Positions 10,116 through 55,649 are shown, counted from the stretch's first letter. The stretch: DNA of 64,000 nucleotides from a virus (IMGVR_UViG_3300021426_000072:1-64000), one strand, 5' to 3'. Notes: generated from the letters alone by a model not told the origin. Translations and numbers: made by a program.

Positions 10116-10131
10116 GCGCTCACCCTCCTTT

Positions 10132-10473: not shown

Positions 10474-10505
10474 CTGGTTCAGCCCCCTTTACTGTATGAA
10501 TGCCG

Positions 10506-11495: not shown

Positions 11496-11524
11496 CTTTT
11501 CCTCCGTCAGATTTAATCGATACA

Positions 11525-12013: not shown

Positions 12014-12017
12014 GTGA

Positions 12018-29186: not shown

Positions 29187-29219
29187 ACGGTGTCTCCTTT
29201 CCATTAAAAATTAGAAGAG

Positions 29220-29255: not shown

Positions 29256-32200
29256 TTAGAATGAATATCCAGAAAGATTAAGACCTTGTTTTGTAATTTC
29301 TTTTACAAAAGCTTGTCCCACTTTTCTTGCCACTTTATCATAATCTTCATCAGACTTAAACTCGGCAGCATTAATTGTAATATTGATATCACCAACACTT
29401 GTATTTCCTTTTAAAGATAAATCAGAAAGAGATGTTGTTGCAGATTTAACTGTAATATACTTAAATGAATCGAGCATTGCTCTCATCAAAGAAGTATCTT
29501 CTGCATCTAAGAATGATTCCGGTCTCTGAGGAGTTCCGTCTACCCAAGCTGGGCCTGTGAAATCAACCAACCCACCTTCAGCATAATGCATTGAGTAATT
29601 TGCTCCTGCTGATGTATACGAGGATTTTACTGGATTCTTTTTATCTTTATAGTCATCTTTCAGATAAACAACATCCACTAAACGACCCATTTCTTTTGCA
29701 GCAGCAATGGCTTTTTGCATAGCTTCAGTGTAACTTGAAGCTGGTACAGACCCGCCTTGCGAAGTTGGGTTGCCTCTTTCGTCTGTTGTTGTAAAATAAT
29801 ATGTCTTTTGCGCTGGTTGTTTTTGAGGTGTAGAAGATTGAGGCTCGGGCGTAGGTGCTTCTATTGGCTCAATTATCTTATAAATATTATTCAAATCTTC
29901 AAGAGACAACTCTTTTCCATTTGAAAAATCGATTGTATTTATTGTGCTATCTGATAAACCATAAGGAGAACCAACTTCACCAGAAACTCCAATTACATTA
30001 ACATTAAAGACATTATTTTTAAGTTCATCTATTTTTGATTCAACATCACTAAGAGAATGATTGTGAAGATCAAAAGTAGCACCAGTTTTATTTGCATTAA
30101 CGTCATTATCGTAATATTCGCTCCATTGTCTTTCAAGTAAAGCCATAGAGTTTTGGTCGTTATTTTCTTTAAAGGAACGATATTCACGATCTGTGTTACG
30201 CATATAATCAAGGAAAGAATCTTTGCTTGTTAAAATAGATGTAATCATTGCGTAGTTGGAATCCACAATGTCGTTTGCTTTCTTCCAAGTGTCTTCCCAT
30301 CCTTGAATCATTTGCTTTTGAGCGTCTGGGAGACTCTTCATGAAAGCTTCGTTTTCTTTTCTCATGAATTCCATGATCTTATCGTAAGAATCTTCAAAAG
30401 AACCAGAAAGAATATCATTCATCTCTGCTGCAAAATTATTTGCATCAGAAAGAATGTCGTTAAGAAGTTCTTCATTATATTGAATAAACTTACCTAATCC
30501 TTCTGCCTGTTCATCAATTCTTTCGTTTTCTGCATTTAACTGATCTTCTGCAATTGACCAAGCCTGTTCTTTTTCAAGATCTTCAATCTTACGTTGTAAT
30601 TCTAAAGCATCTTTTGATCTTGTTGGATCAGCTTGAATTAACGCTAATTGTCTTCTGTAATCCGCAAGTTCTTCGTCTTTATCTGCTTGTTCAGAAGCTT
30701 TTTTGCGATAAGCGAATCGTTCATTTATCAGCCGTTTATACTCTTCGAGATTTTCCTTTTCTTTATCAAGATCTTTCTTTTTAAGATCCCATTCATTTTG
30801 CAAACGTCTCTTTAACAGATCAACAATAGTATTCTGCATAGAAACATTTGCATTAAGAATTTCTCGATTACGTTTCTTTTCGGCTTCAATTTCTTTGTCT
30901 ACCGCGTCTTCCAGAGCTTTTCTAACTTGCATAATCTTTTTAACATTTTCATCGTGAAGCTTATTATTCTTTTCGATCTGAACGTTTTCAGCTTCAAGAC
31001 TTTCTTCTCGTTTCTTTATCTGTTCTACAATTCTTTTTTCTTCTTTTGATCCGTCTGAGAATAAAGCATGTTCTTTTTCTAATTGAACAATTTCAGCCAT
31101 TAGTTCGTTTACACGCTCATGTCTTAAATCATTTTCTTCTTCAATTAGAGCATTAACATTTTTCAGTTCTCCATTTGACTGATATTTAGAAGATTCATAT
31201 CCGAGAAGTTTTAAATTATGATCGTATTCAGAAGCAATTAAATCTTGATCTTCAAAAATCTTATCAAGTCTAATTTTTGCAAGTTCTCTTGTTTGTTTTC
31301 TTTGTTCTATAATTAAGTTTTGCAGATTAGACTCATAAGTATTAATCTGATCAAGATACTCCCGTTGTATTGCCGGATCAAGCAACCCAGCCAGCATTCC
31401 TTCGTTATATTGAGACCAGAGAGTATTTACAGCCGCTATTTCTGCTTCAACTAAATCAGGAATATTATTTAAATACATTTGCATCGCTTCAAAATAAGCG
31501 TCATAATCGTTTGTATCTAAATATTCTTGAGCTTGTTCGTTAAGCATTTCATTAACATGTGTAATTTCTCTTGTTGCATCTTCATAGTTTTCGGTAAGGC
31601 CAGATAGATTGCTTTCAGCTAAAGCTCTATTAAGCTCCATTTGGGATGTTTCTGTTTGAGCTATAGCTTCTTGATATTGGTAAACAGCGGCCTGTGCTTC
31701 AAACCACGCAGTAGAACCTTCTTGCAATGTGTTCATTTGTTCAATAGCTGCGGTTTCAGCTATTTTATTATTAACTGCAATGGTGGAATTGATTCTTTGT
31801 TGCTCACGAAGCATATCTTCGTATTGGCTCCGATAGCCTCCTGACTCATAAGCACTCCCATACATAGAAGCAATATTCTGGTTGTGGCTTGCAGTCTGAG
31901 TATTCTGTTGAAGAACTTTTGCAATTTGAGATAATCTTTGAGAATTAATATCAAGTTGCATTTGAACAAGTTGATTGTCCAATTCAGCATTTTCTTCTTC
32001 TTTTTCCCATATCTTATCTCTTACATCTCTCCATGCATCTGTATCTTTTTCAAATTCCGCCAATTGTTTTTTCCAAGCCGTTATATCAGAATCATTGTTT
32101 AATCTGCGAGTTTGTATTTCTTTTATGTTCTGTTCTGTAAATCTTTCATAATCAGCAAAACGATCTTCATTCATTGCTCGTTGAGCATATTTTTCGAGCA

Positions 32201-35200
32201 TACTTTCTTTATGTGTTCCTGGCTTTGTCTGTTCTTCGAGCTTATCTGCAAGAACTTCTATTTTCTTAGAATTAATACTGTTAATAGTATTATTAATCTC
32301 TGCTAAAGCTTCTTCGGCAGCATAAACTGCATCACGAAGTTTATACCAATCGTCAGAGCTACTGGAAACAGTTTTCATCATATTATTAAGTTCAGCTATA
32401 TTTTGATTATAAGCTTCTCTTAACTCATATTGTAAATCAATCTGATTGTTGATATTGCCAAAAGAGCCAGAATAATCATTTCTAAAATCAAGATCTTTTT
32501 CTGTTGATTCTAAAAGTTTGCTACGATGCTCCAATTCTGCAAGACGACGTTTTTGACTTTCAAGAAGTTTATCAACGGCGGACTTTCCTCCACCGCCACC
32601 TCCACCACCGCCTCTGGTCCCAGAACCTAAACCATCAATGACGAGTTTTGCATCGAAAGAATCTTTTCCAGCGTTAACCTCTAAATGAGCTTTTACGCCC
32701 CAAGCTTGAAGTTCTTTGAGAACGCTTTCTTGAGCTTCATTGAGGTAAAGATCTGTTTCATTAAGAGCTTCATCCAGACTTACACTGACTGGACCGCTTC
32801 CAATAGTTATTGGAGCCCCTTTAACTTCGATTGCATCGCCATTTTTAAAGTGGTCTGTCAAAGTTTGGCTAATACTTTCGCTTAGAGAATTTGCATAATC
32901 TTCAATGCCTGATATATCAACTTGCTCCGAACTTTCAAGCAAACTGTCAACCAGAGCTTTATTCATGGATTCAAGTTGTCGTTTGTCCACGCCAAGCAAT
33001 CCTGCAACAGCGTTTACAGTTTCAGAATCTCTTTTCCCTTGTTTATACTGTTGTCTATAATATTGATTCTGAGAAATTTTAGACATAGATTGATTCATTT
33101 GCATAATCGCAGAGCTTGATTTCTTTGCGTCTTTGCTGAATAAATCCATGTAGGCTGTTGTTGATTTTGTGTCTTTTGCGAAATTCTTAACATCAGCAGA
33201 AGCCTTCTTCAGAGCTTCGTCAACATTATCAATACCGGTTTTAAAGTTTTCTGTTGGGATGCCTGCTTCTTCAAGAACTTTTGTAAATTCTTTATACTGT
33301 TCCTGATTTTCGGCGTAATCAGCTAAAGAAGTTGGTTTATTTATGCCTTCATATTTGTTAAGTTGCCGTTGTGCTTTAAGAATAGAGGCGAGCTGATCGT
33401 TTCCTGAAGTGTAAGCATCGATTATTGTTTGATCTGTAGTGCCAACATAATCGTTGTATGTCCCCTTTAGAACAGAATCAAACAATTCCTGTTGAGTGTT
33501 AATCTTTTGGAAGTCTACAAGACCATTTATCCCATACCCAAAATTAGTAGCAATATCTTTTGCATACTGTCTTTCGAGACTAGATAAAGTATTTGAAGAT
33601 CCCGAAGTAACCATATTGGAGCTAAGAACCTTACTGGCAAATTGATCCCCGAAAATGGTTGTTAGTTCTTCTCTGTCTCCACCAAACGGGTTTTCATTTC
33701 CCATCTCATCTAAAGCTCTTAATATAGATGTCGCTCTTTCTGCTTTTGAAGAATAAGCATCTATTGTAATGCCTTTGTATTCGTTTGACTTTGAGGCTAA
33801 CGCTTCTATAAACTTTCCAAAAGCAACATTGTCTGTATCTGTCGATGTTGTTACTGTTACAGGATTATAGTTTTCATCAACAAAATTTCTTTCGACAAAA
33901 TAAGAAGATAACAAACGACCAAGTCCCGTATCTTCTACTGCCTGTGTGTAAAGACTACTGTTTATATCGCCTCGATTAACAGCATCAATTAAATCCTGAA
34001 GACTGTTAATTTGTAAACTGTAGATATTTGTTAATAAGGTATCTGCATTAATAGCTTTTTGTCCTGCCTCTGAAGCGCCTTCTGTGCTAATAGCGTCTTC
34101 TAACGCTTTTCTAAAAGTAGATCTGACAGGGCCTTTTGATTTAATTTTTTCTGTTTCTTCGGCTTCGGCTATGACATCTTCTATGTCTATATTTAAATTA
34201 AAAGCATCAGCAATTTCTTTAACATTTTTAGCAGTATTCGAAACAAGGGTTTTCATTGAATCTTCATATTCAGATTCAGCAGCTTCAATTTCTTCTGTTG
34301 ATGGTTCATAATCAAATAGATAAATAGAGTCACCAATTTGTAATATCCAATCAGAAGACAAATCAACCAATTTTTCTGCTACGGCTCTTAATTTTCTCTC
34401 GTTTTGTTTAAATTTATCTTCAGTTAGAATTTGTGTTTCATTATTATCTGTAATTTTATACAAAGGGCCAGTAAAACTAGAATCATCAACCCAGGCGGGA
34501 AGTTCTCCTCTTCCTGTAGCCCAACGCTTATGAGTAGCAAAAAAGTTTAAATCATAATCCTCTAAAGCTTCATTAACACCCTGTTCTGTTTCAGGATATT
34601 TATAAACGCTTCTCATAGCGTTCATTTGTTCTTCAATTAGCTTATCTCTATCTTCAGGTGAAACTTGTCTTACAACAGCTTTAGCAATGTTCTGTTTGAC
34701 TTCACTTTCAGTTTGTTCAGCAAAAGTTTTTCCGTATTTCTTTTCTAAAATTCCTTTATATTCTTCGTCAGACAGATTATCTAATACATATCTAGTTAAA
34801 GCTTCTCTTGAAATTAACCCTTCTTCATCTGTATATGATAATAGATTCTTTAAGGCAGTTTGATATGCAGCATACGGCCTCTGAGAATAATTTTCAGTAC
34901 TTTGAACATTATTAATAAAAGAGGACATAAATGAAGGAATATACTTCTCGTCGATTCCGCTTGCAATTGCAACATCATTTATTATTCTGTCTGCTCTTGC
35001 GTTTAAAGCCTCTCCTATTAATTGTTCTTTAATTTCTTTTGTTAAGCCGCCGTCAGCTTCGCCTTTATATGTAAGAATAAAGTCAAGAAGCTGTTTTCCC
35101 GCAGAAGTTCTTTGACTCTTTGTTCCACCTTCGCCAGAGATAATTAAATCGGCGTATTTGTCGGCAGAATCAATGTAATCTAAATCAGCAGGAAGATTAA

Positions 35201-38200
35201 TCAGCTTTTTATCGTAGATATATTTTAATGTTTCTCGCATCCATTCGCCAACGGAATTTTCCATAAAATTTTCAGGACTTGAATAATCCATCATTCCAAT
35301 TCCGGTGCTGACATGATGTTCATGAGAAAGATAAGATTGAAGATTTCCAGACGCTAAAGCATATTCAAGATTTGAACTAATATCAAAAGGGTTTGAACCA
35401 TATTTTAATTCTGTGTCAATTATATTAGCAGTATTACGACCTTTTCTCTTATTGTTTTCTGTTTCAAATTCTTTCATTTTAGTAATAAGAGCGTCGTAAT
35501 TGCCTATTAATCCTTGAACTTCCGATCCTACGTGCCCAAATTCTCCAGCCAAAGAGCCTAAGTTGGCTTCAAGCTGGGTTGTTTCATCTGAAGTTAATCC
35601 TGTTACCGAGTTTGATTTTTCAATAAGACTCTTAGTTTCTTCTATGATTTGATCTACTCCAGATGTGCGATCAGATATCTGTTTGATTTGAGATTTTCTT
35701 ATAGTTCTTTCTTCTTCTTTTTCAAGAATTGCATTATCACTTTTTCGTTTTTGTTCTCCTATCGAGCTAACAATCCCAGTTGTAATGAGTGCAATACCAG
35801 TAAAAAGCGCAGCCCAAGGTTTGGCAGCAATCATCATTGCTCCTAAGGCAATCCCAAGAATCTTTATAGCCCCAGACAAGGCTCCAGTTGCTTTCTCTGC
35901 TGCTGTAATATTCTGAATTGTTTCAGATAAGAAATCGAGAAAACCTGTAGCAGTTTCAGATAATTCAAAAGAACTAATTAAATTATCAAATGCTGTTTTA
36001 ACATTATTTAACTTTGCTTCTAATGAATCAAGATAATTTTCATACTTACGGTCGGTAATACCCTCTGAATTTTGAGCAGTATCAAGATATCTTTGAGCTA
36101 ACTCTCCGCCGTCTTCCGCAAGGCCTTGCAACAATGTAGCGATATTAGAACGCTGTCTGCCTGCACCAAGTGTTGTAAGGATCATGCTTTGAGTTGTATC
36201 GTCTGCATTCTCCCATCCAGCGCCAATATCTTGAAGGATTTGGTATGGACCTCTAAAATTTCCTTTATCGTCATACAGACTAATCCCCATACGAGATAAA
36301 GCTTTTGTTGCAGCCGTGCTTGAAATATGTCTTCCGGCTTCATCTGTGAAATCTTCGTTATTGTTTACTTTGTAAAGTCTGTAAATTAAAGTATTTAAAG
36401 AAGATCCAATATTAGAACCGCCAAGCTGAGTTTTAGAAGTGCCAATAGTTAATAATGTAACAAGTTCGCCATAAGACATTCCAGCTTGTTTTGCGGCAGC
36501 GGCAGACTTCTGCATACCTTTTGATATTTCAGAAGCTGTTGTAGCAGCAGAGTCGCCAAGAGCAACAAGAGCATCCATAGCTTCCTGAGAATTATCTACA
36601 AGCCCATTTTGAAGAGCTGTAGTGATAATCTTTGATGCTTCTGTTGTTTTTATTCCTGCGACCTTGGAGAACTTAATCACATCGTCAAGTCGAGCGTCTA
36701 CTTCTTCATCACTCAAACCTTGTCTATAAAGATTTGATGCCGCTGAAGTGACTTCTGTTACAGTAGATCCAGAAGTTTGAGCTGTTCTAATCAGCTTATC
36801 TCCAAGTTGAGAAATTTCTTCGTCAGATTTTAAAGTAATCATCTGAATTTCAGTCATTGACTTATCGTAATCTCTGACGAAAGATGTAACTTCTTTCCGA
36901 ATTCTATACCACAGTTGTCTTCCAAGCATTCTTCCGGCGGCAGAAGCAAGGTTTGAAACTGTTGTCATTGCAGCGTTCATTGCGTTCTGGCCCGAAGAGA
37001 AATTCTTTTGTTCAGCTTCCGCTGCTCTTAAAGCTTCTGTATATCCTTTAATTTTCTCCTCTGCTTGTGCGATGTTTTTGTTTAAGCTTTTATCTTGTTC
37101 TGCATTTCCTGTTAATTGAGACCTCCAAAGATTTATATTGCCTCGTTCGTCTGCAATTTTATTACTGTATGCTTGAGCTTGATTTTCTAAACTAATACGG
37201 TAATTCTCATCTTGGTTGTAAAGCTGCATAAAACGAGAACGAGAACGTCTCATTCTTCGTTGCTGCTTGTATCGATCATATTGTTGTTCTTGCTGTGCAA
37301 GAGCCATATCATTCTGACGAGAAATTGAAGCTATTTGATTCTGTCTTGTTATGTCAAAAGCATCATTTTGTCTTTGCAAATCTTCATTTAAAATCTTTTC
37401 GTAATCTTCTTTGGAGAAAGAATTTAACAATGTAGATAATTCGTCATATTTATCTTTTCCAATCTTATCGTTTGCTCTAAGATTATCTAAAGATCTGCGA
37501 AGAATATCTTGTTGCTTTTCAAACTTCGAAGCCGACAATTTTATTTTGTCTTTTGGATTTGCATTTTTGCCTTGAGATGAGAGTATGAACTTAGAAATAT
37601 CTTCGCTCATTATTTCTTCTGCATCTTCTAATAACATTTGTTCGTATTCTTCTTTTAATTCATATGCAGAATTTAAAGCTGTTTCTGCTTTTGTTAAAGC
37701 TGCTTTATCTTCGTCCGTTGGCTTTGTTCCTGCTTTTTCTTTTAATATATCGTAAGCAGATCTTGCCCGTTCGATATTCTCATCAATTTCCTTTTGTTCG
37801 TTTACTATCTTTCTTGCACTACTTGTTGTTTTTCGATTTAAAATTCTGTTGAACACATCTTCATTAAACGCAACAAAATCGCCAGAAGCTCCAGCTCTTA
37901 ATGTCTGTTCAAACTGTTGATTCGCTAAATCAAAAGAAGTAGAAAATAATGCAAGTTCTTCATCAGAAGCTCCAATTCGAGATAATGTATTACGAAGATC
38001 TTCATAATGATCTTGACCTAATTGGAACTTAAAATTATCCCACTGTGTAGAAGGCTTTTTTGCCGTCTTTTGTTCATATTTTCTACTCATCGACGCCATG
38101 CGTCCACGAAGCTCTTCATATAAGTCTACTGTTTCATCAATATGCTGTCTTCCAGAAAATGCCTTTGTTAAGTCCGGCTTATCCACCTGCGTAACAGGCA

Positions 38201-41200
38201 CAGAGCCTTCAAATGAATACAGAGGAGGAACAGGAGGTTGGTTATTAGATCCTCCTCCTCTATTATTCTGGAGAGGTAATTCAGGCGAGTTTAATGAATG
38301 ATTAGATTGAAAAGAAAAAACTCCAGGCAACGCATATTTATTGAAATATCCCTGTCTGATTTCATGGAATGGATCAGGGTTATTCATAAGATTGATTGCA
38401 GCAGAAGAAAGGTTACGCATACGCTCTTCTACGCTGCTAATCATTTCTGTAGTAATCGGAACAGATCTTGTTTCAAGTTTTCCGTTGCCATAAGAGATTA
38501 TTCCTGCATGAGTTGCTTTGTTGTCACCTGCATACAAAACGGGCTGATCGTATCTGTGACTTTGTCCAGTCTTTTCGTCAATCCACTCAAGAGACTTATC
38601 GTGAGTAAAACCTTCTTTTGCATCCCAGTTTGTAATAGCTCCAGTCCTTGGATCACGAGTAACAAGATCGATATAGCCAACAGAATCAAGCCGACGACCT
38701 AATTTATCGACACCAAGATTTGGATGGACAATACCGCCATTTTTCTCAGCACCAATAATTTCTAAGTCTTTCATGAAATCTGGCAGGCTACGTACAGAAC
38801 TAACAATAGATTGATAGCGCTGTTTTACTTTTGCATCATATAGTTTGCTATCTTCTGTTGGTAATTCGGGGAACAAAGATAATTTTTTCCCTGTTTTTTC
38901 GTCTACCCAATTAAGCAAATAATCGTTTAATAACGCCTCATATTCGTCTGGCGTGCCATAATCATTTTGATTTTTCATTCTTCTGCCAGCCCAAGTTTCT
39001 TGAACTTTATGATAAGCAGAACCAAGAAGCATTAAAGGAGTTATTTCATCAGGAATTCCCGCAATGTATCTGGTGTACCAATTCTCTCCGCCGCTGGCGC
39101 TTTTTTCAATAGTGTGTAATTGGCTCCATGAATACTGACGAGTATTTGCTTTATTTACGGCTTCTGCAATAGCTTCTTGCCGAGCAATATTTTCAGAAGT
39201 AGCCAGTAATTGAGGATCTGCCCCTGAAAGAACAATACTCTTAGAAAGGAGAGCATCCTGTTCAGTATCAAATGCACTTGCAAAATTAGAACGAGAACCA
39301 GTTAGACGACCTTTCGCTAATCCAGAAGAACTAATAAATCCATCTTTTCTATTTGCAGCTTCTTCTGTTATACCATATCCGTGTAAAAATTCTAATCGTT
39401 TCTTTTGAAGCTCAGTTTCATAAAGCTGATTTCTCAAGTATTCCTTTTGAGCTTGAGAAATTCCCGGACGATTATACTCATCAGAAACTAATCCCGCCCA
39501 ATTTGCGTACAATCCTTTTAATTCGTTTTCATCTTTCGTAGAAACAATTTGAGCTTTATTAGAAGCGATTTGAGCCATCAAAGAATTATTTTTACGAAGA
39601 TATTGTGCTTTAGCTTTATCTGCGGGATTATTAGATGATTCAAGCGCATCTAATCCTTGTAAAAATTCTTGAGCTTGAATAAAAGATTCAATCATGTCAT
39701 TGCTAAAAGCACTATCCATTCCCGCTGCCAACATACTTGTTGTTAAATTTGAATAACGAGATGGAAAATTCACTTTTGAAAAATCTTTAACATTCGAAAA
39801 ATCACTGTTTTGAATTGCAGCATGTAAATTTTTAAACATACTGACATAAGGTGTTCCAAGATTTTTCGCGCCTCTTGCATAATGAGACCAAGAAGCAAGA
39901 ACACCAGTTTTGGCAAAAGTTGTATCGATATCGTACATTGCACGAAGATCAACGCCAGCCTGTCTTGCAAACTTAGCCCATTCAGGATCAAGCCAGTTCC
40001 CCTGAGAAAGAGCATCTCCAGCGTTGGAAACTCCAGCCATATCTAAAACAGAAGCTGCTTTTCGATAAAGCATGTCTGCAAAATCAGAACCTCGTACTTT
40101 TCGAGCTCCTCCTTTAAGAGGAATATCTTCTTCTTCTTTAATTGTTGGGCTTAATTTTGCAGCTTCAGATCCTCTAAATTTCCATGTTCTTTCTACTATT
40201 GTTCTTAATCTATTTCTGACAGCCTGAACAGTATCTCCATCGAAATCGCCGCCGCCCATCTTTTTGATAGTGTCCATGTTCATAACCATGGCATTACGGC
40301 TTATACCATACTCATCTAAAAGATTAATAAAATCTTTGGAGTTATATAACTTAAATTGTTCACCTACGTTGTTAGGGTAACGCCAACCTGCAATCTGATT
40401 GTCTGCCCACGCAGCAAGTGCAACAGCATCTTCGTCGCCTCTGCCTTTTAAACTTAATATGTTTGCAAGGTTTTTATTGACAGGAGCTTTTTTGTTGGCT
40501 TTTGCCATAGCGCTAATCAGTTCGAACGGATTGTTAATTGCAAGAGCGTTTAAAGCATCGCCCTTGGCAAAAAACCGTTCATTTAAAAGATCATCCTTAG
40601 CACTTTGAATTGAATCATTGACTCTTGCTCTTGCTTCGGGGTCGCTAAAAAAGAGACTATGATCTGCACTTACTCTTTGAGCCAACGGGTCATCTGGGTC
40701 AGAAAAAAGTAACTTGATAGTTTCTTCTGGATTATGTTCAAGAGTATCAATATACTTTTCCCATTTCTTTCTGTTTGCTGCAACATCTTTTTTACTAAGC
40801 GCTAAATTTTGAGTAACTTGTCTTGAAATAGAATCACTTCTGCTTAAAAATTCTTTATCTGTTGTTACTCCTCGAACACCACCAATTAAGTCGGCAATGT
40901 CAGAAAATAAATCTTGTATTTCTGTGTGACTTTTGCCTTTATAAAACGTGGTTTTATCCATCGTTTTATCGATCAAGGCCTCGTATTTAAGGATGTCTAC
41001 AAAATCTTCATCGAAAGATGTGAGACCAGATTTCTTATATGCTTGACGAACTGCTTCAATTCCACTTTTTTTGTAAAGCTCTTTCATTTCTGCTGGAGCA
41101 TTCCATGTCGGAGCGTAAAAAGAATCAACGTCTCCATATACATCTTTAATCATCTTTTTAAAATCAGTATTAAACCCAGCACCTTTAAATCCTACTGATC

Positions 41201-43154
41201 TTAAAGTCATTGCATCAGCAGGAAGGTATCCAGGCATAAACATAGCCCCGCCATCGAAACCTGTAAGAGAGTTCAAATCAACAAAAGCTATTTGATTTTT
41301 ATCAGGCATTCTTCCGCCAAGTTCAGAAAGAGGAATAGAAGGTGTATGTATTCTGTTTCTCGCATCAATCGGTTTGTTTAATCCTTTTATGGTATCAAAT
41401 GTTTCATCTTGGGAAATAAGATTTTGGAAAACATCTACGCCATACTTGTCAACGAATTGTGTTGCTTTTTCTAAATAAGCAGATTCAAGAGCCAAATCGA
41501 TAACGCCATTCTTATGAATGCCCGTAGGCACATAAGTTCCATTTTTGCCATAGCTGATTGTATTATATTTTAACTGATGATTTCCGGGAGTTGTTATAGT
41601 TTTTCCGTTTTCAACGTCAAATAACTGCGACACAAATGCCATTGTTTCAGCATTTGGTTTTGGTCTGCCGTTTTCAAAAATCGTTCTTCCAGAAGAATCC
41701 TTCTCGTAAATCCTGTCTGAAAGGTCAAGCTGTAACATTCTACGTGGACCGCTTTCAGAGCCATATGTGTTATGACCAGCCATTCCTAAAAGATCCGTAT
41801 AAATAGAACGACTAATCATCTTATTTACGGATTTCCCAGCAGGTCTTGTTTCAGCTAAAGATTGTTTAGGCTCTTTATCGTCAAGTATTACTCCATTTTT
41901 CAGATCATCCAAGGTTAAGGACATAATCTGGAAATAATCAGGACGAATATTTATAGAAGAATCAACAGCGCTTGAATTATCTGCGGAACGTCTATAACTT
42001 CTTGGCTTATCGAGATATAAAGGTTCTCTAACTGGGATTCCCTGTAAAGCGTCGAATGCAGCAAAGCTTTCTGATGCAACATGCGATGTTTTTCTTGCGA
42101 TTGCTTTTTGAGCATAATCATCGGAATTGGAAAGAAAATGACGGTACATCGGAGCACCTTCCAATGCCGGACGGAAAATATTTCTGTCTAAAAATCCTAA
42201 TGCAGCACCGTATTCTGCTTCGCTTATAGGTTTAGTGGGCATGATGAGTTGCCCGGCTTTTCCGTTAGCGACTCCTCTTTTTGCAACACCTGCCATCGTT
42301 AAAGCAGCTTCAAATGCAGGATATTTAGAAGCGACAGCTTTAACAACAGCATAATCTTCATCAGTTAAATTTCCCCCTTGATATGCTTTTCTTTTAGCTC
42401 CATTGCTAAAAGACGTTGTTTTTGGCACATCAGGGAAATTTCTAAAACTTTCCGGTAAACGATCTTTATACGTTACATACTCCGGTAAAACAGACAAACG
42501 TTTAAGCGTTCCTTGAGACGCATCTATTACCTTTTGATAATACGTGTCTCTGTTGTGAGAAGGCGTAGTATACTGAACAACACCTTTTATCAGCTCATCA
42601 ATTTGAGAATTAGATAATCCATATTTTGCGGAAACAGCCGAAGCGCCTTTTGCAAACGGTCCATTATTTTTCAAAATCGACATAAGCGCATCGTCTGATT
42701 GAGGCCCCATATTCCGAGTTGTCTTTCTCAATAAAGAAGAGGCTGTTTTTGACATGTCTGTAAATTCATGTTCAAAATCTTTAGCTAATGCTGAAGGAAC
42801 AGAAGAAAAAATCTTTCCTATAGATCCAGTAGAAGAGAATAACGATTCAACATTAGCTGTTAAATAGGCAATTCCTTGTTTTAAGCCTGTTATAATGTCG
42901 CTACTTATGGATTCTCCAAGCGCAGCGTTTTGAAGAACAGAAGTCAAACCTTTATATTGCTGGACAATATTAGTCTTTGCAGATGAAACATAAGTAGACA
43001 TTGCACTTGGAATGTTTCCAAATGAATTATTACTAAGCGAAGATAAAGAAAAGTTATCTTCTAATGTTTGTAATTGAGTCTGGCAAGCTAAAAGTTCTTG
43101 TTGGTCAAATGGTTTTAAATTTGGATTAATCTCAATGTCTATACGATTACTCAT
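29256..43154 (-). CDS. Tape measure protein with N-terminal two-barrel RNA polymerase and PD-(D/E)XK nuclease domains (4632 aa)
   Basis: TMP core YDKSMTEIQMIT...AGRQRS...KLNNVKTAF (~35950-36870), hydrophobic segment, coiled coils, C-terminal YAEGGLVDFTGPAWVDGTPQRPESFL; lies downstream of the chaperones. RNAP motifs at aa ~633-1085, nuclease motifs at aa ~1341-1545. Confidence 0.92.
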   Translation of the reverse strand: MSNRIDIEINPNLKPFDQQELLACQTQLQTLEDNFSLSSLSNNSFGNIPSAMSTYVSSAKTNIVQQYKGLTSVLQNAALGESISSDIITGLKQGIAYLTANVESLFSSTGSIGKIFSSVPSALAKDFEHEFTDMSKTASSLLRKTTRNMGPQSDDALMSILKNNGPFAKGASAVSAKYGLSNSQIDELIKGVVQYTTPSHNRDTYYQKVIDASQGTLKRLSVLPEYVTYKDRLPESFRNFPDVPKTTSFSNGAKRKAYQGGNLTDEDYAVVKAVASKYPAFEAALTMAGVAKRGVANGKAGQLIMPTKPISEAEYGAALGFLDRNIFRPALEGAPMYRHFLSNSDDYAQKAIARKTSHVASESFAAFDALQGIPVREPLYLDKPRSYRRSADNSSAVDSSINIRPDYFQIMSLTLDDLKNGVILDDKEPKQSLAETRPAGKSVNKMISRSIYTDLLGMAGHNTYGSESGPRRMLQLDLSDRIYEKDSSGRTIFENGRPKPNAETMAFVSQLFDVENGKTITTPGNHQLKYNTISYGKNGTYVPTGIHKNGVIDLALESAYLEKATQFVDKYGVDVFQNLISQDETFDTIKGLNKPIDARNRIHTPSIPLSELGGRMPDKNQIAFVDLNSLTGFDGGAMFMPGYLPADAMTLRSVGFKGAGFNTDFKKMIKDVYGDVDSFYAPTWNAPAEMKELYKKSGIEAVRQAYKKSGLTSFDEDFVDILKYEALIDKTMDKTTFYKGKSHTEIQDLFSDIADLIGGVRGVTTDKEFLSRSDSISRQVTQNLALSKKDVAANRKKWEKYIDTLEHNPEETIKLLFSDPDDPLAQRVSADHSLFFSDPEARARVNDSIQSAKDDLLNERFFAKGDALNALAINNPFELISAMAKANKKAPVNKNLANILSLKGRGDEDAVALAAWADNQIAGWRYPNNVGEQFKLYNSKDFINLLDEYGISRNAMVMNMDTIKKMGGGDFDGDTVQAVRNRLRTIVERTWKFRGSEAAKLSPTIKEEEDIPLKGGARKVRGSDFADMLYRKAASVLDMAGVSNAGDALSQGNWLDPEWAKFARQAGVDLRAMYDIDTTFAKTGVLASWSHYARGAKNLGTPYVSMFKNLHAAIQNSDFSNVKDFSKVNFPSRYSNLTTSMLAAGMDSAFSNDMIESFIQAQEFLQGLDALESSNNPADKAKAQYLRKNNSLMAQIASNKAQIVSTKDENELKGLYANWAGLVSDEYNRPGISQAQKEYLRNQLYETELQKKRLEFLHGYGITEEAANRKDGFISSSGLAKGRLTGSRSNFASAFDTEQDALLSKSIVLSGADPQLLATSENIARQEAIAEAVNKANTRQYSWSQLHTIEKSASGGENWYTRYIAGIPDEITPLMLLGSAYHKVQETWAGRRMKNQNDYGTPDEYEALLNDYLLNWVDEKTGKKLSLFPELPTEDSKLYDAKVKQRYQSIVSSVRSLPDFMKDLEIIGAEKNGGIVHPNLGVDKLGRRLDSVGYIDLVTRDPRTGAITNWDAKEGFTHDKSLEWIDEKTGQSHRYDQPVLYAGDNKATHAGIISYGNGKLETRSVPITTEMISSVEERMRNLSSAAINLMNNPDPFHEIRQGYFNKYALPGVFSFQSNHSLNSPELPLQNNRGGGSNNQPPVPPLYSFEGSVPVTQVDKPDLTKAFSGRQHIDETVDLYEELRGRMASMSRKYEQKTAKKPSTQWDNFKFQLGQDHYEDLRNTLSRIGASDEELALFSTSFDLANQQFEQTLRAGASGDFVAFNEDVFNRILNRKTTSSARKIVNEQKEIDENIERARSAYDILKEKAGTKPTDEDKAALTKAETALNSAYELKEEYEQMLLEDAEEIMSEDISKFILSSQGKNANPKDKIKLSASKFEKQQDILRRSLDNLRANDKIGKDKYDELSTLLNSFSKEDYEKILNEDLQRQNDAFDITRQNQIASISRQNDMALAQQEQQYDRYKQQRRMRRSRSRFMQLYNQDENYRISLENQAQAYSNKIADERGNINLWRSQLTGNAEQDKSLNKNIAQAEEKIKGYTEALRAAEAEQKNFSSGQNAMNAAMTTVSNLASAAGRMLGRQLWYRIRKEVTSFVRDYDKSMTEIQMITLKSDEEISQLGDKLIRTAQTSGSTVTEVTSAASNLYRQGLSDEEVDARLDDVIKFSKVAGIKTTEASKIITTALQNGLVDNSQEAMDALVALGDSAATTASEISKGMQKSAAAAKQAGMSYGELVTLLTIGTSKTQLGGSNIGSSLNTLIYRLYKVNNNEDFTDEAGRHISSTAATKALSRMGISLYDDKGNFRGPYQILQDIGAGWENADDTTQSMILTTLGAGRQRSNIATLLQGLAEDGGELAQRYLDTAQNSEGITDRKYENYLDSLEAKLNNVKTAFDNLISSFELSETATGFLDFLSETIQNITAAEKATGALSGAIKILGIALGAMMIAAKPWAALFTGIALITTGIVSSIGEQKRKSDNAILEKEEERTIRKSQIKQISDRTSGVDQIIEETKSLIEKSNSVTGLTSDETTQLEANLGSLAGEFGHVGSEVQGLIGNYDALITKMKEFETENNKRKGRNTANIIDTELKYGSNPFDISSNLEYALASGNLQSYLSHEHHVSTGIGMMDYSSPENFMENSVGEWMRETLKYIYDKKLINLPADLDYIDSADKYADLIISGEGGTKSQRTSAGKQLLDFILTYKGEADGGLTKEIKEQLIGEALNARADRIINDVAIASGIDEKYIPSFMSSFINNVQSTENYSQRPYAAYQTALKNLLSYTDEEGLISREALTRYVLDNLSDEEYKGILEKKYGKTFAEQTESEVKQNIAKAVVRQVSPEDRDKLIEEQMNAMRSVYKYPETEQGVNEALEDYDLNFFATHKRWATGRGELPAWVDDSSFTGPLYKITDNNETQILTEDKFKQNERKLRAVAEKLVDLSSDWILQIGDSIYLFDYEPSTEEIEAAESEYEDSMKTLVSNTAKNVKEIADAFNLNIDIEDVIAEAEETEKIKSKGPVRSTFRKALEDAISTEGASEAGQKAINADTLLTNIYSLQINSLQDLIDAVNRGDINSSLYTQAVEDTGLGRLLSSYFVERNFVDENYNPVTVTTSTDTDNVAFGKFIEALASKSNEYKGITIDAYSSKAERATSILRALDEMGNENPFGGDREELTTIFGDQFASKVLSSNMVTSGSSNTLSSLERQYAKDIATNFGYGINGLVDFQKINTQQELFDSVLKGTYNDYVGTTDQTIIDAYTSGNDQLASILKAQRQLNKYEGINKPTSLADYAENQEQYKEFTKVLEEAGIPTENFKTGIDNVDEALKKASADVKNFAKDTKSTTAYMDLFSKDAKKSSSAIMQMNQSMSKISQNQYYRQQYKQGKRDSETVNAVAGLLGVDKRQLESMNKALVDSLLESSEQVDISGIEDYANSLSESISQTLTDHFKNGDAIEVKGAPITIGSGPVSVSLDEALNETDLYLNEAQESVLKELQAWGVKAHLEVNAGKDSFDAKLVIDGLGSGTRGGGGGGGGGKSAVDKLLESQKRRLAELEHRSKLLESTEKDLDFRNDYSGSFGNINNQIDLQYELREAYNQNIAELNNMMKTVSSSSDDWYKLRDAVYAAEEALAEINNTINSINSKKIEVLADKLEEQTKPGTHKESMLEKYAQRAMNEDRFADYERFTEQNIKEIQTRRLNNDSDITAWKKQLAEFEKDTDAWRDVRDKIWEKEEENAELDNQLVQMQLDINSQRLSQIAKVLQQNTQTASHNQNIASMYGSAYESGGYRSQYEDMLREQQRINSTIAVNNKIAETAAIEQMNTLQEGSTAWFEAQAAVYQYQEAIAQTETSQMELNRALAESNLSGLTENYEDATREITHVNEMLNEQAQEYLDTNDYDAYFEAMQMYLNNIPDLVEAEIAAVNTLWSQYNEGMLAGLLDPAIQREYLDQINTYESNLQNLIIEQRKQTRELAKIRLDKIFEDQDLIASEYDHNLKLLGYESSKYQSNGELKNVNALIEEENDLRHERVNELMAEIVQLEKEHALFSDGSKEEKRIVEQIKKREESLEAENVQIEKNNKLHDENVKKIMQVRKALEDAVDKEIEAEKKRNREILNANVSMQNTIVDLLKRRLQNEWDLKKKDLDKEKENLEEYKRLINERFAYRKKASEQADKDEELADYRRQLALIQADPTRSKDALELQRKIEDLEKEQAWSIAEDQLNAENERIDEQAEGLGKFIQYNEELLNDILSDANNFAAEMNDILSGSFEDSYDKIMEFMRKENEAFMKSLPDAQKQMIQGWEDTWKKANDIVDSNYAMITSILTSKDSFLDYMRNTDREYRSFKENNDQNSMALLERQWSEYYDNDVNANKTGATFDLHNHSLSDVESKIDELKNNVFNVNVIGVSGEVGSPYGLSDSTINTIDFSNGKELSLEDLNNIYKIIEPIEAPTPEPQSSTPQKQPAQKTYYFTTTDERGNPTSQGGSVPASSYTEAMQKAIAAAKEMGRLVDVVYLKDDYKDKKNPVKSSYTSAGANYSMHYAEGGLVDFTGPAWVDGTPQRPESFLDAEDTSLMRAMLDSFKYITVKSATTSLSDLSLKGNTSVGDINITINAAEFKSDEDYDKVARKVGQAFVKEITKQGLNLSGYSF
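38350..39140 (-). other. PD-(D/E)XK (RecB/AddB-family) nuclease domain within the TMP; boundaries approximate
   Basis: YSWSQL...WYTRYIAG...LLGSAYHKVQE...GAEK...GYIDL (D1496)...WDAKEG (D1511)...DQPVLY. Confidence 0.8.
39700..41650 (-). other. RNA polymerase domain (YonO/RdRP-like double-psi-barrel family) within the TMP; boundaries approximate
   Basis: FDGG (D634), LRSVGFKG (R652), SRQVTQNL, WRYP (R925), GGGDFDGD (D970-D974, nt 40233-40247), DTTFAKTG (K1082); same order as in the 813-aa RNAP. Confidence 0.88.
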
Positions 43155-53957: not shown

Positions 53958-55649
53958 TTAAAAACGATTGAACGTTTTAATAATATTTTTTGAAAAACCA
54001 TCATCAAATCCGCCTGTAACGCCTATACACTCACGACCATGCTGATGCAGTTTAATACTGACCTTTTCAAGTTCGGAGATATAGTCATTACCCATAGCAA
54101 GTGCTGAATAACGGTCTTTATGCATCGTAGACTTAGGTACGTCATAAATGAAGTTACCGCTTGCGCCTACTCTGGCAACAATATTGCCCATTTCAATCTG
54201 AAGAGCGTCTGCCTCAATAAAATTGGCAAACTCTTCTTTTGAAAATTTCTTTTCGGATTCTTCCTGTTTTTCCCTCATGATTCTGGAAGAAATAGGAAGC
54301 TCTATTGTCTGCTTTTCAAGAGCAACTCTTAAATTTGTATAGATTCTCTGGTTAAGCTGATTGACAGCCCTGAAAGGATGCAAAGCCTGAACAGCGTCCG
54401 GGTTGGTTAAAGGTTCATCATCTACAACCAACGGCGGATACTCCCTCCCGGATTCACCGTCAATCCATGCCTTGTCAAAGAATCTGTCGAAACTATCACC
54501 TATGCCCCTTGCGTCGTAAACAATCTTTTCAGTATTAGGGAATTTAATGTGATAGTACTTTCTGACTGTTTCTGCGAGATAGTCCAAAGGAATACCATTA
54601 AAGGAACGCAAATGGACAACCTGCTTACTGAAAGACCCGTCTTTCTTTTCATTAAACTTATGTACAACCAAAACACTATTGTCTGATCCTTTGGCTTTGG
54701 ATGTAGCTATATCCAACGAAATAATATACCGGGACTTAGAGCCTTTCGGCTGTTCCATTTCAATGTTGGATAAAGTACGACAACTTTGGACAAGATCAAA
54801 TGGAAGAGCTGAATCTTCAGAAGACCCAAGGAATTTTGACTCATATTCCATTTGGAACGTTGTCTCAGGAATACTGTCCTTTTCTTCCATGTAGTACTTC
54901 TCTTTGGTTAAACCTTCCGCAATTGGGGTCTTGTAATGCAGCACACAAGCAAAATAAGACTTGTCTCCAGAAGCCATCCGCTGAACAATACGTTCGAATT
55001 CTTTAAAGAATTCATAGTTCTTTGGACAGGCAGAAGTAATATAGATGATCTTGGAATCAAAATCATCAAAACCAAAAGCCCGAGGATTATAGCGGGTTTC
55101 GTTTCTTGTGGGCTTCGCAACTTCCTGAAGAATCTTCATATCCACATCACGAGCTTCATCCACAATAAGAAGCTTACATCGATAAGATCTGGCACGGGCA
55201 ATAGGAACTGATTTAATTGTGCTGCCGTTCTTCAGCATGATATTGGACTCGTCTTTACTAATAGAAACATATGTCTTTGCGTTAGTCGGACGAATTTCAT
55301 TCCTGACGTTTTCGTTCTCATTGCAAAGATCACGTATCTTTTCAGCAATACGAGTAGCCTGGTCTGCCGTAGGAGCAACAACAAGAATAGAAGTTCCGGG
55401 ATAAAGAGAACCAAGGGAAATAGCAATAAATGCCGTCAGCCATGTTTTACCATACCCACGAGGAGCAACAATAGCCGATGTAGTAGCATTACCAACCCCA
55501 CGAGCAATAACATGCTGAATTGGAGTAAGCTTTACAGGAGCAAAGGCACTCTCAATATACATATCCATATGGGTACGGAAATAGATTATCTGTTCTTCTA
55601 TTACGTCCCAGTTGGTGATTGTGCCGTTTTGTCTTCGGGTGTCAATCAT
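53958..55649 (-). CDS. terL: Terminase large subunit
   Basis: Walker A APRGYGKT, Walker B LLIVDEAR, YITSA, nuclease SLDIA...KDRYSAL. Confidence 0.95.
   Translation of the reverse strand: MIDTRRQNGTITNWDVIEEQIIYFRTHMDMYIESAFAPVKLTPIQHVIARGVGNATTSAIVAPRGYGKTWLTAFIAISLGSLYPGTSILVVAPTADQATRIAEKIRDLCNENENVRNEIRPTNAKTYVSISKDESNIMLKNGSTIKSVPIARARSYRCKLLIVDEARDVDMKILQEVAKPTRNETRYNPRAFGFDDFDSKIIYITSACPKNYEFFKEFERIVQRMASGDKSYFACVLHYKTPIAEGLTKEKYYMEEKDSIPETTFQMEYESKFLGSSEDSALPFDLVQSCRTLSNIEMEQPKGSKSRYIISLDIATSKAKGSDNSVLVVHKFNEKKDGSFSKQVVHLRSFNGIPLDYLAETVRKYYHIKFPNTEKIVYDARGIGDSFDRFFDKAWIDGESGREYPPLVVDDEPLTNPDAVQALHPFRAVNQLNQRIYTNLRVALEKQTIELPISSRIMREKQEESEKKFSKEEFANFIEADALQIEMGNIVARVGASGNFIYDVPKSTMHKDRYSALAMGNDYISELEKVSIKLHQHGRECIGVTGGFDDGFSKNIIKTFNRF

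What the first reader, a model, noticed from the sequence alone, without database searches (positions are those of the whole stretch)
38200..39140. Second enzymatic cargo in the TMP: a PD-(D/E)XK nuclease between the RNAP and the tape core
Seen: aa ~1341-1545 carry the RecB-family motifs SWSQL, LGSAYH...E, GAE, GYID, DAK and QPVLY, but lack the Cys ligands of Cas4/AddB. A Pro/Gly/Asn-rich linker (SPELPLQNNRGGGSNNQPPVPP, ~38220-38290) follows, before the coiled-coil TMP part. I know of no description of an RNAP-nuclease-TMP triple fusion. Inference: the nuclease might nick or resect the incoming genome end to expose the ssDNA or hairpin template that some virion RNAPs need, process ends for circularisation, or attack host DNA. 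The linker may be a release site.
Basis: partly seen in the sequence, partly recalled or inferred. Interest (0 to 1): 0.88.

Follow-up and report, generated by a model that had tools for sequence, protein, structure and literature searches.

The report
Nuclease domain inside phage tape measure
The 4,632-residue tail "ruler" protein of this uncultured 127-kb phage carries, right behind its built-in RNA polymerase, a well-conserved DNA-cutting domain of the RecB/AddB/Cas4 type that has lost its iron-sulfur cluster. The phage therefore probably injects a nuclease together with its polymerase, an arrangement I could not find described.

Summary
Residues ~1303-1612 of the 4,632-aa ORF at 29256-43154 (-) form a PD-(D/E)XK nuclease domain.

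- **Fold:** the AlphaFold2 model has pLDDT 88.8. It matches the AddB, AdnA, ACE1, Dna2 and Cas4 nuclease domains (Z 10-13; Foldseek probability 1.0).
- **Sequence:** a profile built only from tape-measure copies scores 28-64 bits against 120 stand-alone Pfam PDDEXK_1 proteins, and 52 bits against this phage's own replication-module nuclease.
- **Conservation:** in 26 distinct tape-measure copies (21-95% identity), D1496, D/E1511, K1513 and Q1537 are kept in 25 of 25.
- **Cysteines:** the domain has none. The stand-alone copy keeps the Cas4-type cysteines.
- **Co-occurrence:** every relative found through the YonO/QDE-1-type polymerase part also has the nuclease ~520-550 residues after DxDGD.
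- **Closest published case:** Thermus phage P23-45 gp96, the only published polymerase-tape-measure fusion, shows no detectable nuclease by sequence.

Best reading: an active nuclease that threads single-stranded DNA, injected with the virion polymerase. It would act at time zero on the entering phage DNA end or on an unwound strand. That role is inferred, not shown. The "release site" idea has no support.

This is a new variant of a known kind. Other agents of this scan noted the domain on this same genome only.

The parts
29256..43154 (-). Single 4,632-aa ORF (P0001): tape measure protein with an N-terminal enzymatic module
   Evidence: Open frame. PF10145 at E 1.2e-27, and 12 PHROG tape-measure families.
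39288..41657 (-). YonO/QDE-1-type two-barrel RNA polymerase module (about aa 500-1289). The metal-binding DFDGD is at aa 970-974 (nt 40233-40247).
   Evidence: MGGGDxDGD is invariant in 15 giant homologs. Weak hit to phrog_8308, and 2.4e-8 for a homolog. The model matches RDR2/QDE-1 at E 2e-4 to 5e-3 and P23-45 gp96 (8h2m) at E 0.016.
39189..39290 (-). Low-confidence, probably flexible segment between polymerase and nuclease (aa ~1289-1322)
   Evidence: pLDDT 35-37 in the two-domain model, whose pTM is 0.45.
38319..39248 (-). PD-(D/E)XK nuclease domain of the RecB/AddB/Cas4 family, without cysteines (aa ~1303-1612; profile core aa 1341-1605)
   Evidence: AF2 pLDDT 88.8, pTM 0.83. Foldseek: ACE1 at E 4.5e-6, plus AdnA, Dna2, RecE and MGME1. 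VIA Z: 13.0 AddB, 12.6 AdnA, 11.7 ACE1. Profile scores.
39009..39026 (-). Motif LGSAYH (G1378, H1382), equivalent to the RecB-family GxxxH motif
   Evidence: G in 24/24 and H in 20/24 tape-measure copies. Aligns with GTLIH of the stand-alone nuclease.
38742..38756 (-). Strand motif IGAEK with E1470
   Evidence: E in 21/25, Q in 4. Invariant in the 15 giant proteins.
38664..38678 (-). GYIDL: catalytic aspartate D1496
   Evidence: G1493 25/25 and D1496 25/25.
38616..38624 (-). DAK: the (D/E)xK motif, D1511 and K1513
   Evidence: 23 D plus 2 E of 25. K in 25/25.
38532..38546 (-). QPVLY: the RecB-family QxxxY motif (Q1537, Y1541)
   Evidence: Q 25/25, Y 23/25.
38175..38318 (-). Variable Pro/Gly/Asn/Gln-rich disordered linker (aa ~1613-1660) between the nuclease and the helical tape part
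   Evidence: 12 invariant columns of 116, with many insertions and deletions. pLDDT below 40.
36168..36788 (-). PhageMin_Tail (PF10145) core of the tape measure, aa 2123-2329
   Evidence: E 1.2e-27, 97.6 bits.
35757..35885 (-). Hydrophobic helix pair, aa 2424-2466 (candidate membrane hairpin of the ejected tape measure)
   Evidence: Kyte-Doolittle window mean of 1.6-1.9.
58662..61103 (+). Stand-alone YonO-family RNA polymerase gene (813 aa), a non-virion counterpart of the tape-measure polymerase
   Evidence: phrog_8308 at E 1.4e-74. Among 14 control genomes this family matches only in B. subtilis.

Best explanation
Residues ~1303-1612 of the tape measure protein form a catalytically competent Mg2+-dependent PD-(D/E)XK nuclease of the RecB/AddB/AdnA/ACE1/Cas4 branch.

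It is a diverged, cysteine-free relative of the ~280-aa exonuclease that this phage group keeps in its replication module.

It is hard-wired ~520-550 residues behind the DxDGD centre of a YonO/QDE-1-type virion RNA polymerase. Together the two form the head-proximal cargo of the tape measure.

Inferred mechanism:
1. The tape measure is expelled from the tail at infection. The polymerase-nuclease module reaches the cytoplasm just ahead of the DNA and folds there. Having no Fe-S cluster to rebuild would make this easier.
2. Like its closest structural relatives, the nuclease accepts only a single strand threaded into a narrow channel.
3. Its likely substrate is therefore the 5'-ended strand at the entering phage genome end, or a strand unwound by the adjacent polymerase.
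4. Cutting that strand would expose or clear a single-stranded template for pre-early transcription before any phage gene is expressed.

Shown here: fold, motifs, conservation, co-occurrence and position. Inferred: delivery into the cell, activity, substrate and purpose.
For: **Fold.** AF2 pLDDT 88.8. Foldseek probability 1.0 to ACE1, AdnA, Dna2, RecE and MGME1. VIA Z 13.0 to AddB, 12.6 to AdnA, 11.7 to ACE1, over 214-267 aligned residues, which is more than the minimal core. In BFVD, 78 hits have E <= 0.001, and all 50 listed are 235-609-aa proteins rather than tape measures; wherever a name is given it is a PD-(D/E)XK, RecB- or Cas4-family nuclease or exonuclease.

**Sequence.** The tape-measure-only profile scores 52 bits against the phage's own PF12705 nuclease and 28-64 bits against 120 others.

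**Catalytic residues.** D1496, D/E1511, K1513 and Q1537 are kept in 25/25 copies at 21-95% identity.

**Coupling to the polymerase.** All 15 giant homologs and all 8 IMG/VR loci have both domains at constant spacing. This includes P0019-21, which were retrieved through the polymerase region alone.

**A separate time-zero role.** The phage and 5 of 5 relatives checked also encode a stand-alone nuclease. In this phage it lies in the replication module.

**Cysteines.** The stand-alone copy has Cys21 plus C238/C246/C250/C256. The tape-measure domain has none, and the whole giant proteins have 0-2.

**Relatives' mechanism.** ACE1, AdnA and AddB thread ssDNA through a 10-13 A channel and cut the 5' strand of unwound ends (PMC12094033).

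**Delivery precedent.** P23-45 gp96 polymerase is in virions and transcribes pre-early genes (PMC10770324).
Against: - No activity, substrate or delivery data exist for this protein, and the phage is uncultured.
- P23-45-type polymerase tape measures work without any detectable nuclease. A nuclease is therefore not generally required for tape-measure-borne transcription.
- The relative placement of polymerase and nuclease is not confidently predicted (pTM 0.45), so a physical hand-over of a strand is not supported by the model.
- Degrading one's own entering DNA is risky and needs control that I cannot identify.
- E1470 is Q in 4 copies, H1382 varies in 4, and Y1541 is E in 2.
- The window copy itself is under Pfam's cut-off.
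Confidence: 0.5

Rival explanations
1. End resection for recombination or circularisation. The injected nuclease resects the entering genome end 5'->3' so that terminal repeats can anneal, or so that host or phage recombinases can load. Its role is genome establishment rather than transcription.
For: RecE and lambda exonuclease are among the fold matches (Z 9.4 and 6.8). The nearest viral matches are recombination or replication exonucleases. Three related records are classed as having direct terminal repeats.
Against: The phage already encodes two exonucleases and an SSB in its replication module. The trailing end arrives long after the first gene products could be made. At least one 'terminal repeat' record (G003) has the tape-measure gene running off its end, so those repeats are assembly circularisation rather than physical ends. 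Strict linkage to the polymerase is not explained.
Confidence: 0.13
2. Host takeover. The injected nuclease attacks host chromosomal or plasmid DNA immediately on entry.
For: The catalytic residues are conserved. It would be present before any phage gene is expressed.
Against: Only a few copies would enter per virion, and if the P23-45 precedent holds they stay tethered to the tape measure. The closest structural relatives cannot admit duplex DNA and need a free or unwound single strand. No helicase is fused.
Confidence: 0.12
3. Counter-defence. The domain either destroys single-stranded DNA molecules used by host immunity (pAgo guides, retron or reverse-transcriptase products), or occupies the incoming DNA end to keep RecBCD/AddAB off it.
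For: The best Foldseek match is ACE1, an ssDNA endonuclease of a pAgo defence system. The domain would act at time zero, when defences matter most.
Against: The resemblance to ACE1 is a shared fold at 11-13% identity, no closer than to AddB or AdnA. End capping would not need an invariant catalytic triad. No defence context was examined.
Confidence: 0.08
4. Non-catalytic module. The fold is kept as a DNA-end-binding or structural spacer of the tape measure, without cleavage.
For: H1382 and E1470 are not invariant. The domain would contribute length to the ruler.
Against: D, (D/E)xK and Q are kept in 25/25 copies down to 21% identity, while the surrounding tape sequence is almost free to vary (2-6 invariant columns per 100 residues in much of the core, against 29-37 in the nuclease).
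Confidence: 0.07
5. RNA-directed role. The nuclease cuts nascent transcripts or RNA-DNA hybrids made by the adjacent polymerase, for 3'-end formation or primer generation.
For: Obligate fusion to an RNA polymerase. Unusual termination by P23-45 vRNAP is reported.
Against: Every listed solved match above Z 5 is a DNA nuclease or Cas4-like protein; the only other entry, an eIF3d cap-binding domain, scores Z 4.7. P23-45, where the odd terminators were seen, has no detectable nuclease by sequence.
Confidence: 0.05
6. Selfish in-frame insertion, such as a homing-type PD-(D/E)XK endonuclease, with no role for the phage.
For: PD-(D/E)XK homing enzymes exist (general knowledge).
Against: It sits at the same position in all 26 copies across 21-95% identity, with no empty site found. 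It carries the RecB-family QxxxY signature.
Confidence: 0.02

Closest known systems
Thermus phage P23-45 gp96 (also P74-26, G20c, TSP4): tape-measure-fused virion RNA polymerase (Chaban et al. 2024, PMC10770324)
   Same: Both are giant tape measures (5,002 aa against 4,632 aa) with an N-terminal two-barrel polymerase carrying DFDGD. Both phages also have non-virion polymerase paralogues elsewhere in the genome.
   Different: gp96 has no detectable nuclease. Pfam finds only Peptidase_M23, and the tape-measure nuclease profile scores -3 bits. The paper does not mention a nuclease. There is no BLAST-level similarity to the window protein. P23-45 keeps its RecB-family exonuclease as a separate gene.
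AddB / AdnA nuclease domains of the AddAB and AdnAB end-resection machines
   Same: These are the best structural matches (Z 13.0 and 12.6, 247-267 aligned residues). Both have the D...(D/E)xK and QxxxY motifs. In both cases the nuclease is placed C-terminal to a DNA-unwinding motor.
   Different: Those domains bind a 4Fe-4S cluster through four cysteines and follow a helicase-like motor. This one has no cysteine and follows an RNA polymerase. Sequence identity is 10-14%.
ACE1, the Argonaute-associated Cas4-family ssDNA endonuclease (PMC12094033), and Cas4
   Same: Best Foldseek hit (E 4.5e-6, Z 11.7, rmsd 3.6 A over 214 residues). Same N-terminal S-x-S-x-L motif and the same catalytic layout.
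   Different: ACE1 and Cas4 are stand-alone Fe-S proteins of defence systems. This domain is embedded in a virion protein and is Fe-S-free.
Stand-alone phage RecB/Cas4-family exonucleases (Pfam PDDEXK_1), including this phage's own at G000 99279-100019
   Same: Homologous by profile (52 bits). The motifs align one to one. All 50 listed BFVD matches are stand-alone-sized proteins (235-609 aa), and those with a name are PD-(D/E)XK, RecB- or Cas4-family nucleases.
   Different: The stand-alone gene sits in the replication module and keeps the cysteine ligands. A single-sequence search of 1.8 billion proteins with the tape-measure copy found no stand-alone relative, so the tape-measure copy is strongly diverged.
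Tape measure proteins with other enzymatic inserts (M23 peptidase in P23-45 gp96; muralytic domains in T5 pb2 and mycobacteriophage TMPs)
   Same: An enzyme is carried within the ruler protein and delivered at infection (the rest is general knowledge).
   Different: Those inserts act on the cell wall. This one is a nucleic-acid enzyme paired with a polymerase.

Membership tests
PD-(D/E)XK superfamily, RecB/Cas4 branch (Pfam PDDEXK_1, PF12705) | Restriction-endonuclease-like alpha/beta core fold | tested here: met
   AF2 pLDDT 88.8. Z 10-13 to AddB, AdnA, ACE1, Dna2 and Cas4. Foldseek probability 1.0.
PD-(D/E)XK superfamily, RecB/Cas4 branch (Pfam PDDEXK_1, PF12705) | Catalytic D ... (D/E)xK in consecutive strands | tested here: met
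   D1496, D1511 and K1513 are kept in 25/25 copies. They align with the stand-alone nuclease's IVD ... DHK.
PD-(D/E)XK superfamily, RecB/Cas4 branch (Pfam PDDEXK_1, PF12705) | RecB-family QxxxY motif | tested here: met
   Q1537 25/25, Y1541 23/25.
PD-(D/E)XK superfamily, RecB/Cas4 branch (Pfam PDDEXK_1, PF12705) | Score above Pfam's gathering cut-off | tested here: inconclusive
   The window copy scores 20.8 bits against a cut-off of 22. Three of 6 family members match PF12705 at E <= 1, the best at 2.2e-13. The tape-measure profile hits 120 PF12705 proteins at 28-64 bits.
PD-(D/E)XK superfamily, RecB/Cas4 branch (Pfam PDDEXK_1, PF12705) | Metal-dependent nuclease activity | not testable with these tools
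   Needs biochemistry.
Cas4 / AddB / AdnA / ACE1 iron-sulfur nucleases | Four cysteines ligating a 4Fe-4S cluster (one N-terminal, three C-terminal) | tested here: not met
   No cysteine in aa 1300-1625. The stand-alone paralogue has C21 and C238/C246/C250/C256.
AddAB/AdnAB-type resection machine | Nuclease fused to a helicase or helicase-like motor | tested here: not met
   The upstream module is a two-barrel RNA polymerase. Pfam finds no helicase family in the protein.
Tape-measure-fused virion RNA polymerase (P23-45 gp96 type) | Two-barrel polymerase with DxDGD at the N-terminus of a tape measure protein | tested here: met
   DFDGD at 970, invariant MGGGDxDGD. Fold matches to RDR2/QDE-1, and weakly to gp96. 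PF10145 lies downstream.
Tape-measure-fused virion RNA polymerase (P23-45 gp96 type) | Presence in virions and pre-early transcription | not testable with these tools
   Uncultured phage. Shown only for P23-45.
Lambda exonuclease / RecE toroidal exonucleases | Closest structural class and ring-shaped oligomer | tested here: inconclusive
   Lower Z than the AddB/AdnA/ACE1 group (RecE 9.4, lambda exonuclease 6.8). The oligomeric state was not established.

The most novel reading that the evidence does not exclude
The polymerase and nuclease work as one machine, analogous to AddAB but with an RNA polymerase as the unwinding motor. Anchored at the tape-measure pore, the polymerase transcribes the entering DNA and feeds the displaced (or 5'-ended) strand into the nuclease channel. 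The first kilobases would then enter as an RNA-DNA hybrid or single strand. This would both pull the genome in and hide it from duplex-specific restriction and CRISPR at the most vulnerable moment.
Probability: 0.12. Interest if true: 0.88.

Novelty: new variant of a known kind. Interest (0 to 1): 0.62.

Why it matters
Tape measure proteins were long seen as passive rulers. The P23-45 work showed that one can carry a virion RNA polymerase.

This finding shows a whole, so far uncultured, phage lineage (at least 26 distinct copies, some of them TAG-recoded) in which the ruler delivers two nucleic-acid enzymes in fixed order. The second is an iron-sulfur-free remodel of a common phage exonuclease.

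If the nuclease prepares the template for a QDE-1-like polymerase, it would bear on an open question: how single-subunit two-barrel virion polymerases start on incoming duplex DNA. It would also be a natural example of an Fe-S nuclease fold re-engineered to survive unfolding and ejection.

The test is ordinary: express the 1-1660 fragment and the D1496A/K1513A mutants.

Tried and rejected
- **PDB by sequence.** The single domain, and a 6-sequence profile, gave nothing meaningful (nanobody and SusD hits at E >= 0.25). Only fold comparison worked.
- **PHROGs.** No family matched the nuclease stretch.
- **GenBank phages.** tblastn of the domain, of a distant member (P0012) and of the polymerase part found no match.
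- **Public collections.** The IMG/VR scan with the single domain found nothing. The alignment A2 was too divergent for a scan. The scan with A4 found 8 loci. The scan of GTDB genomes found no prophage copy, so the host stays unknown.
- **First profile.** My first domain profile, cut from alignment A1, was faulty: the ends of the short query were misaligned, giving 2,390 columns. I rebuilt it from extracted segments.
- **Homotrimer job.** Three copies of aa 1335-1612, to test a lambda-exonuclease-like ring matching a trimeric tape measure, returned no verdict (score 0.00; controls not run). This is neither for nor against.
- **Two-domain model.** It gave pTM 0.45, so no domain-domain geometry can be claimed.
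- **The look-up of encoding contigs.** The sample origin of the homologs was not obtained that way.
- **Last word-indexed search.** The alignment included the stand-alone nuclease, so the results were dominated by its relatives. I used them only as a test set for the tape-measure-only profile, not as evidence of which family is nearest.
- **Physical ends.** I considered inferring genome ends from the IMG/VR 'direct terminal repeat' labels. I rejected this because the tape-measure gene of G003 runs off the record's end.
- **Homing-endonuclease reading.** Rejected because the position is fixed in every copy.

Full report
**What is there.** The window holds the late operon of a phage on the minus strand: terminase, portal, capsid, tail and fibres. 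The record is an IMG/VR virus contig of 127,247 bp, and the window is its first 64 kb. One uninterrupted ORF, 29256-43154 (-), encodes 4,632 residues. Its middle matches PhageMin_Tail (PF10145, E 1.2e-27) and 12 PHROG tape-measure families. A hydrophobic helix pair follows at aa 2424-2466. The gene sits where a tape measure gene belongs.

**Checking the observation.** On sequence alone the window copy is marginal. Pfam PDDEXK_1 gives 20.8 bits against a cut-off of 22, and there is no PDB or PHROG hit. Three further lines settle it.

1. **Relatives.** An exhaustive phmmer search of 1.8 billion representatives found only 15 relatives. Nearly all are 4,000-5,600-aa proteins with the domain at ~1300-1660, and the rest are fragments of such proteins. 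One of the family members tested reaches PDDEXK_1 at E 2.2e-13.
2. **Profile.** A profile built only from tape-measure copies scores 52 bits on the phage's own stand-alone PF12705 nuclease. It scores 28-64 bits on 120 further PF12705 proteins.
3. **Fold.** An AlphaFold2 model of aa 1300-1625 is confident (pLDDT 88.8, pTM 0.83). Its solved-structure matches are RecB-family nucleases:
   - Foldseek: ACE1 at E 4.5e-6, then AdnA, Dna2, RecE and MGME1.
   - VIA-align Z: 13.0 AddB, 12.6 AdnA, 11.7 ACE1, 11.2 Dna2, 10.3 Cas4, 9.4 RecE, 6.8 lambda exonuclease.
   - In the viral library, 78 matches have E <= 0.001. All 50 listed are 235-609-aa proteins, none a tape measure, and those with a name are PD-(D/E)XK, RecB- or Cas4-family nucleases or exonucleases.

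**Conservation.** I collected 26 distinct tape-measure-embedded copies: 18 from the protein searches (17 full or partial domains plus the 70-residue fragment P0015) and 8 from IMG/VR loci. They are 21-95% identical to the window copy.

| Residue | Kept in |
|---|---|
| G1493 | 25/25 |
| D1496 | 25/25 |
| D/E1511 | 25/25 (23 D, 2 E) |
| K1513 | 25/25 |
| Q1537 | 25/25 |
| Y1541 | 23/25 |
| E1470 | 21/25 |
| H1382 | 20/24 |

Among the five closest proteins, the nuclease stretch keeps 29-37 invariant columns per 100 residues. The polymerase part keeps 46-58, and much of the tape core only 2-6. This is the pattern of an enzyme under selection, not of a spacer.

**Context: a fixed polymerase-nuclease module.**
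- Upstream lies a two-barrel RNA polymerase. MGGGDxDGD is invariant.
- That part hits the YonO family phrog_8308 weakly here, and at 2.4e-8 in a homolog.
- My 1,126-residue model matches RDR2 and QDE-1 (E 2e-4 to 5e-3), and weakly matches P23-45 gp96 (8h2m, E 0.016).
- All 12 giant homologs from the first two searches have DxDGD at ~970-1031 and the nuclease D...(D/E)xK ~520-550 residues later. In the other three and in all 8 IMG/VR loci the nuclease profile matches at aa ~1355-1715, and each locus has DxDGD at aa 978-1059.
- This includes P0019-21, which I found through the polymerase region alone.
- I found no copy with one domain but not the other.
- The segment between the two domains (aa ~1289-1322) and the linker after the nuclease (aa ~1613-1660) are low-confidence and variable.
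- The two-domain model has pTM 0.45, so no fixed mutual orientation can be claimed.

**Comparison with the published case.** Chaban et al. (PMC10770324) showed that the N-terminus of P23-45 gp96 is a virion polymerase. It is present in virions as part of full-length gp96, and it transcribes pre-early genes, including the gene for a non-virion polymerase. That paper never mentions a nuclease. I fetched gp96 and tested it. Pfam finds only Peptidase_M23, and the tape-measure nuclease profile scores -3 bits. P23-45 keeps its RecB-family exonuclease as a separate 278-aa protein. The nuclease insert is therefore specific to the lineage in this window. No GenBank phage record and no GTDB genome holds a relative. 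Four further literature searches found no description of such a fusion.

**A paralogue-like pair.**
- The phage also encodes a 283-aa PDDEXK_1 nuclease at G000 99279-100019 (E 2.3e-20).
- That gene lies between a primase-helicase and a DNA polymerase, next to an SSB and another exonuclease.
- All five related virus records checked also have such a stand-alone gene.
- The stand-alone protein keeps a Cas4-type cysteine set (C21; C238, C246, C250, C256). The tape-measure copy has none, although the motifs align one to one.
- The giant proteins as a whole have 0-2 cysteines in 4,000-5,900 residues.
- This mirrors the polymerase situation, where the same genomes carry two further stand-alone YonO-family genes.
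- Whether the tape-measure nuclease arose by duplication within this lineage could not be tested without outgroups.

**How it most likely works (inference).**
- By analogy with P23-45, and with general knowledge of siphophage tape measures, the protein is expelled at infection. Its head-proximal N-terminal part would enter last, next to the leading DNA end.
- A domain that must be stored in the tail lumen and fold on arrival cannot easily carry an Fe-S cluster. This gives a rationale for the loss of the cysteines.
- The closest structural relatives (ACE1, AdnA, AddB) bury the D-DxK site in a 10-13 A channel that admits only a threaded single strand. They cut the 5'-ended strand of unwound ends.
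- Here the neighbouring DNA-unwinding element is a polymerase rather than a helicase.
- I therefore favour action on the 5' strand of the entering genome end, or on a strand opened by the polymerase, in the service of pre-early transcription. QDE-1-type enzymes are known to use single-stranded templates (my own knowledge, not tested here).
- The same argument makes attack on intact host duplex DNA less likely.
- The separate replication-module nucleases make a general recombination role less necessary, but do not exclude it.
- The release-site idea has nothing in its favour. The linker has no conserved motif, and gp96 is not cleaved in virions.

**Confidence.**

| Claim | Probability |
|---|---|
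| It is a real RecB-family nuclease fold | ~0.95 |
| It is catalytically active | ~0.85 |
| It is delivered with the polymerase | ~0.7 |
| It processes incoming phage DNA for transcription | ~0.35 |

The overall figure for the combined statement is 0.5.

**Earlier notes in this scan.** Other agents had already mentioned the nuclease in passing while following up the polymerase on this same genome. No look-alike was noted on other DNA.

Noticed in passing
L003:4307-7174 (G000 about 92306-95173), outside the window: There is a third YonO-family gene (955 aa, phrog_8308 E 1.1e-179), besides the tape-measure polymerase and the 813-aa gene at window 58662-61103. Related virus records also carry two or more stand-alone copies, so three polymerases per genome seems to be the rule in this lineage.
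   Followed up: partly
L007, L008, L009, L010 (IMG/VR relatives), match region 10001-13285: The polymerase-nuclease region holds 4-10 in-frame TAG codons and no other stops. Read as TAG=Q, the frames open to 2,364-4,962 aa and contain the nuclease. Part of this lineage therefore appears to be TAG-recoded, while the window phage is not.
   Followed up: partly
window 29256-43154 (-) and homologs P0002-P0021: Extreme cysteine depletion: 0-2 Cys in 3,980-5,892 residues. By contrast, a 1,274-1,277-aa ORF directly upstream of the tape measure in L011 and L012 has 25-26 Cys.
   Followed up: no
window 32589-32612 (-), aa 3515-3522: A run of eight glycines, followed by KS..DKL, lies inside the tape part. 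It is kept as GGGGGGGGKS in the majority consensus of the giant homologs. It may be a hinge or a processing point.
   Followed up: no
L008 (IMG/VR record of 107,106 bp classed as 'direct terminal repeats'): The tape-measure gene runs off the end of the record. The 'terminal repeat' is therefore an assembly circularisation rather than a physical genome end, and such labels cannot be used to infer which end enters first.
   Followed up: partly
window 55646-56584 (-): A 312-aa ORF just upstream of the large terminase hits phrog_3314. Its N-terminal ~70 residues weakly resemble HNH / endonuclease VII. It may be an HNH partner of the terminase.
   Followed up: no
window 26658-29204 (-): The 848-aa ORF directly after the tape measure gives many collagen-like tail-fibre PHROG hits (best E 9e-38).
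   Followed up: no
window 38298-38702 (+): A 134-aa antisense ORF lies inside the nuclease-coding stretch. No evidence was sought for it. It is most likely a chance frame opposite a long gene.
   Followed up: no
P0047 (stand-alone nuclease relative on a 110-kb contig): NCBI names this protein as coming from a Paludibacteraceae MAG. This is the only host hint seen (Bacteroidales), and the contig may be a mis-binned phage contig.
   Followed up: no
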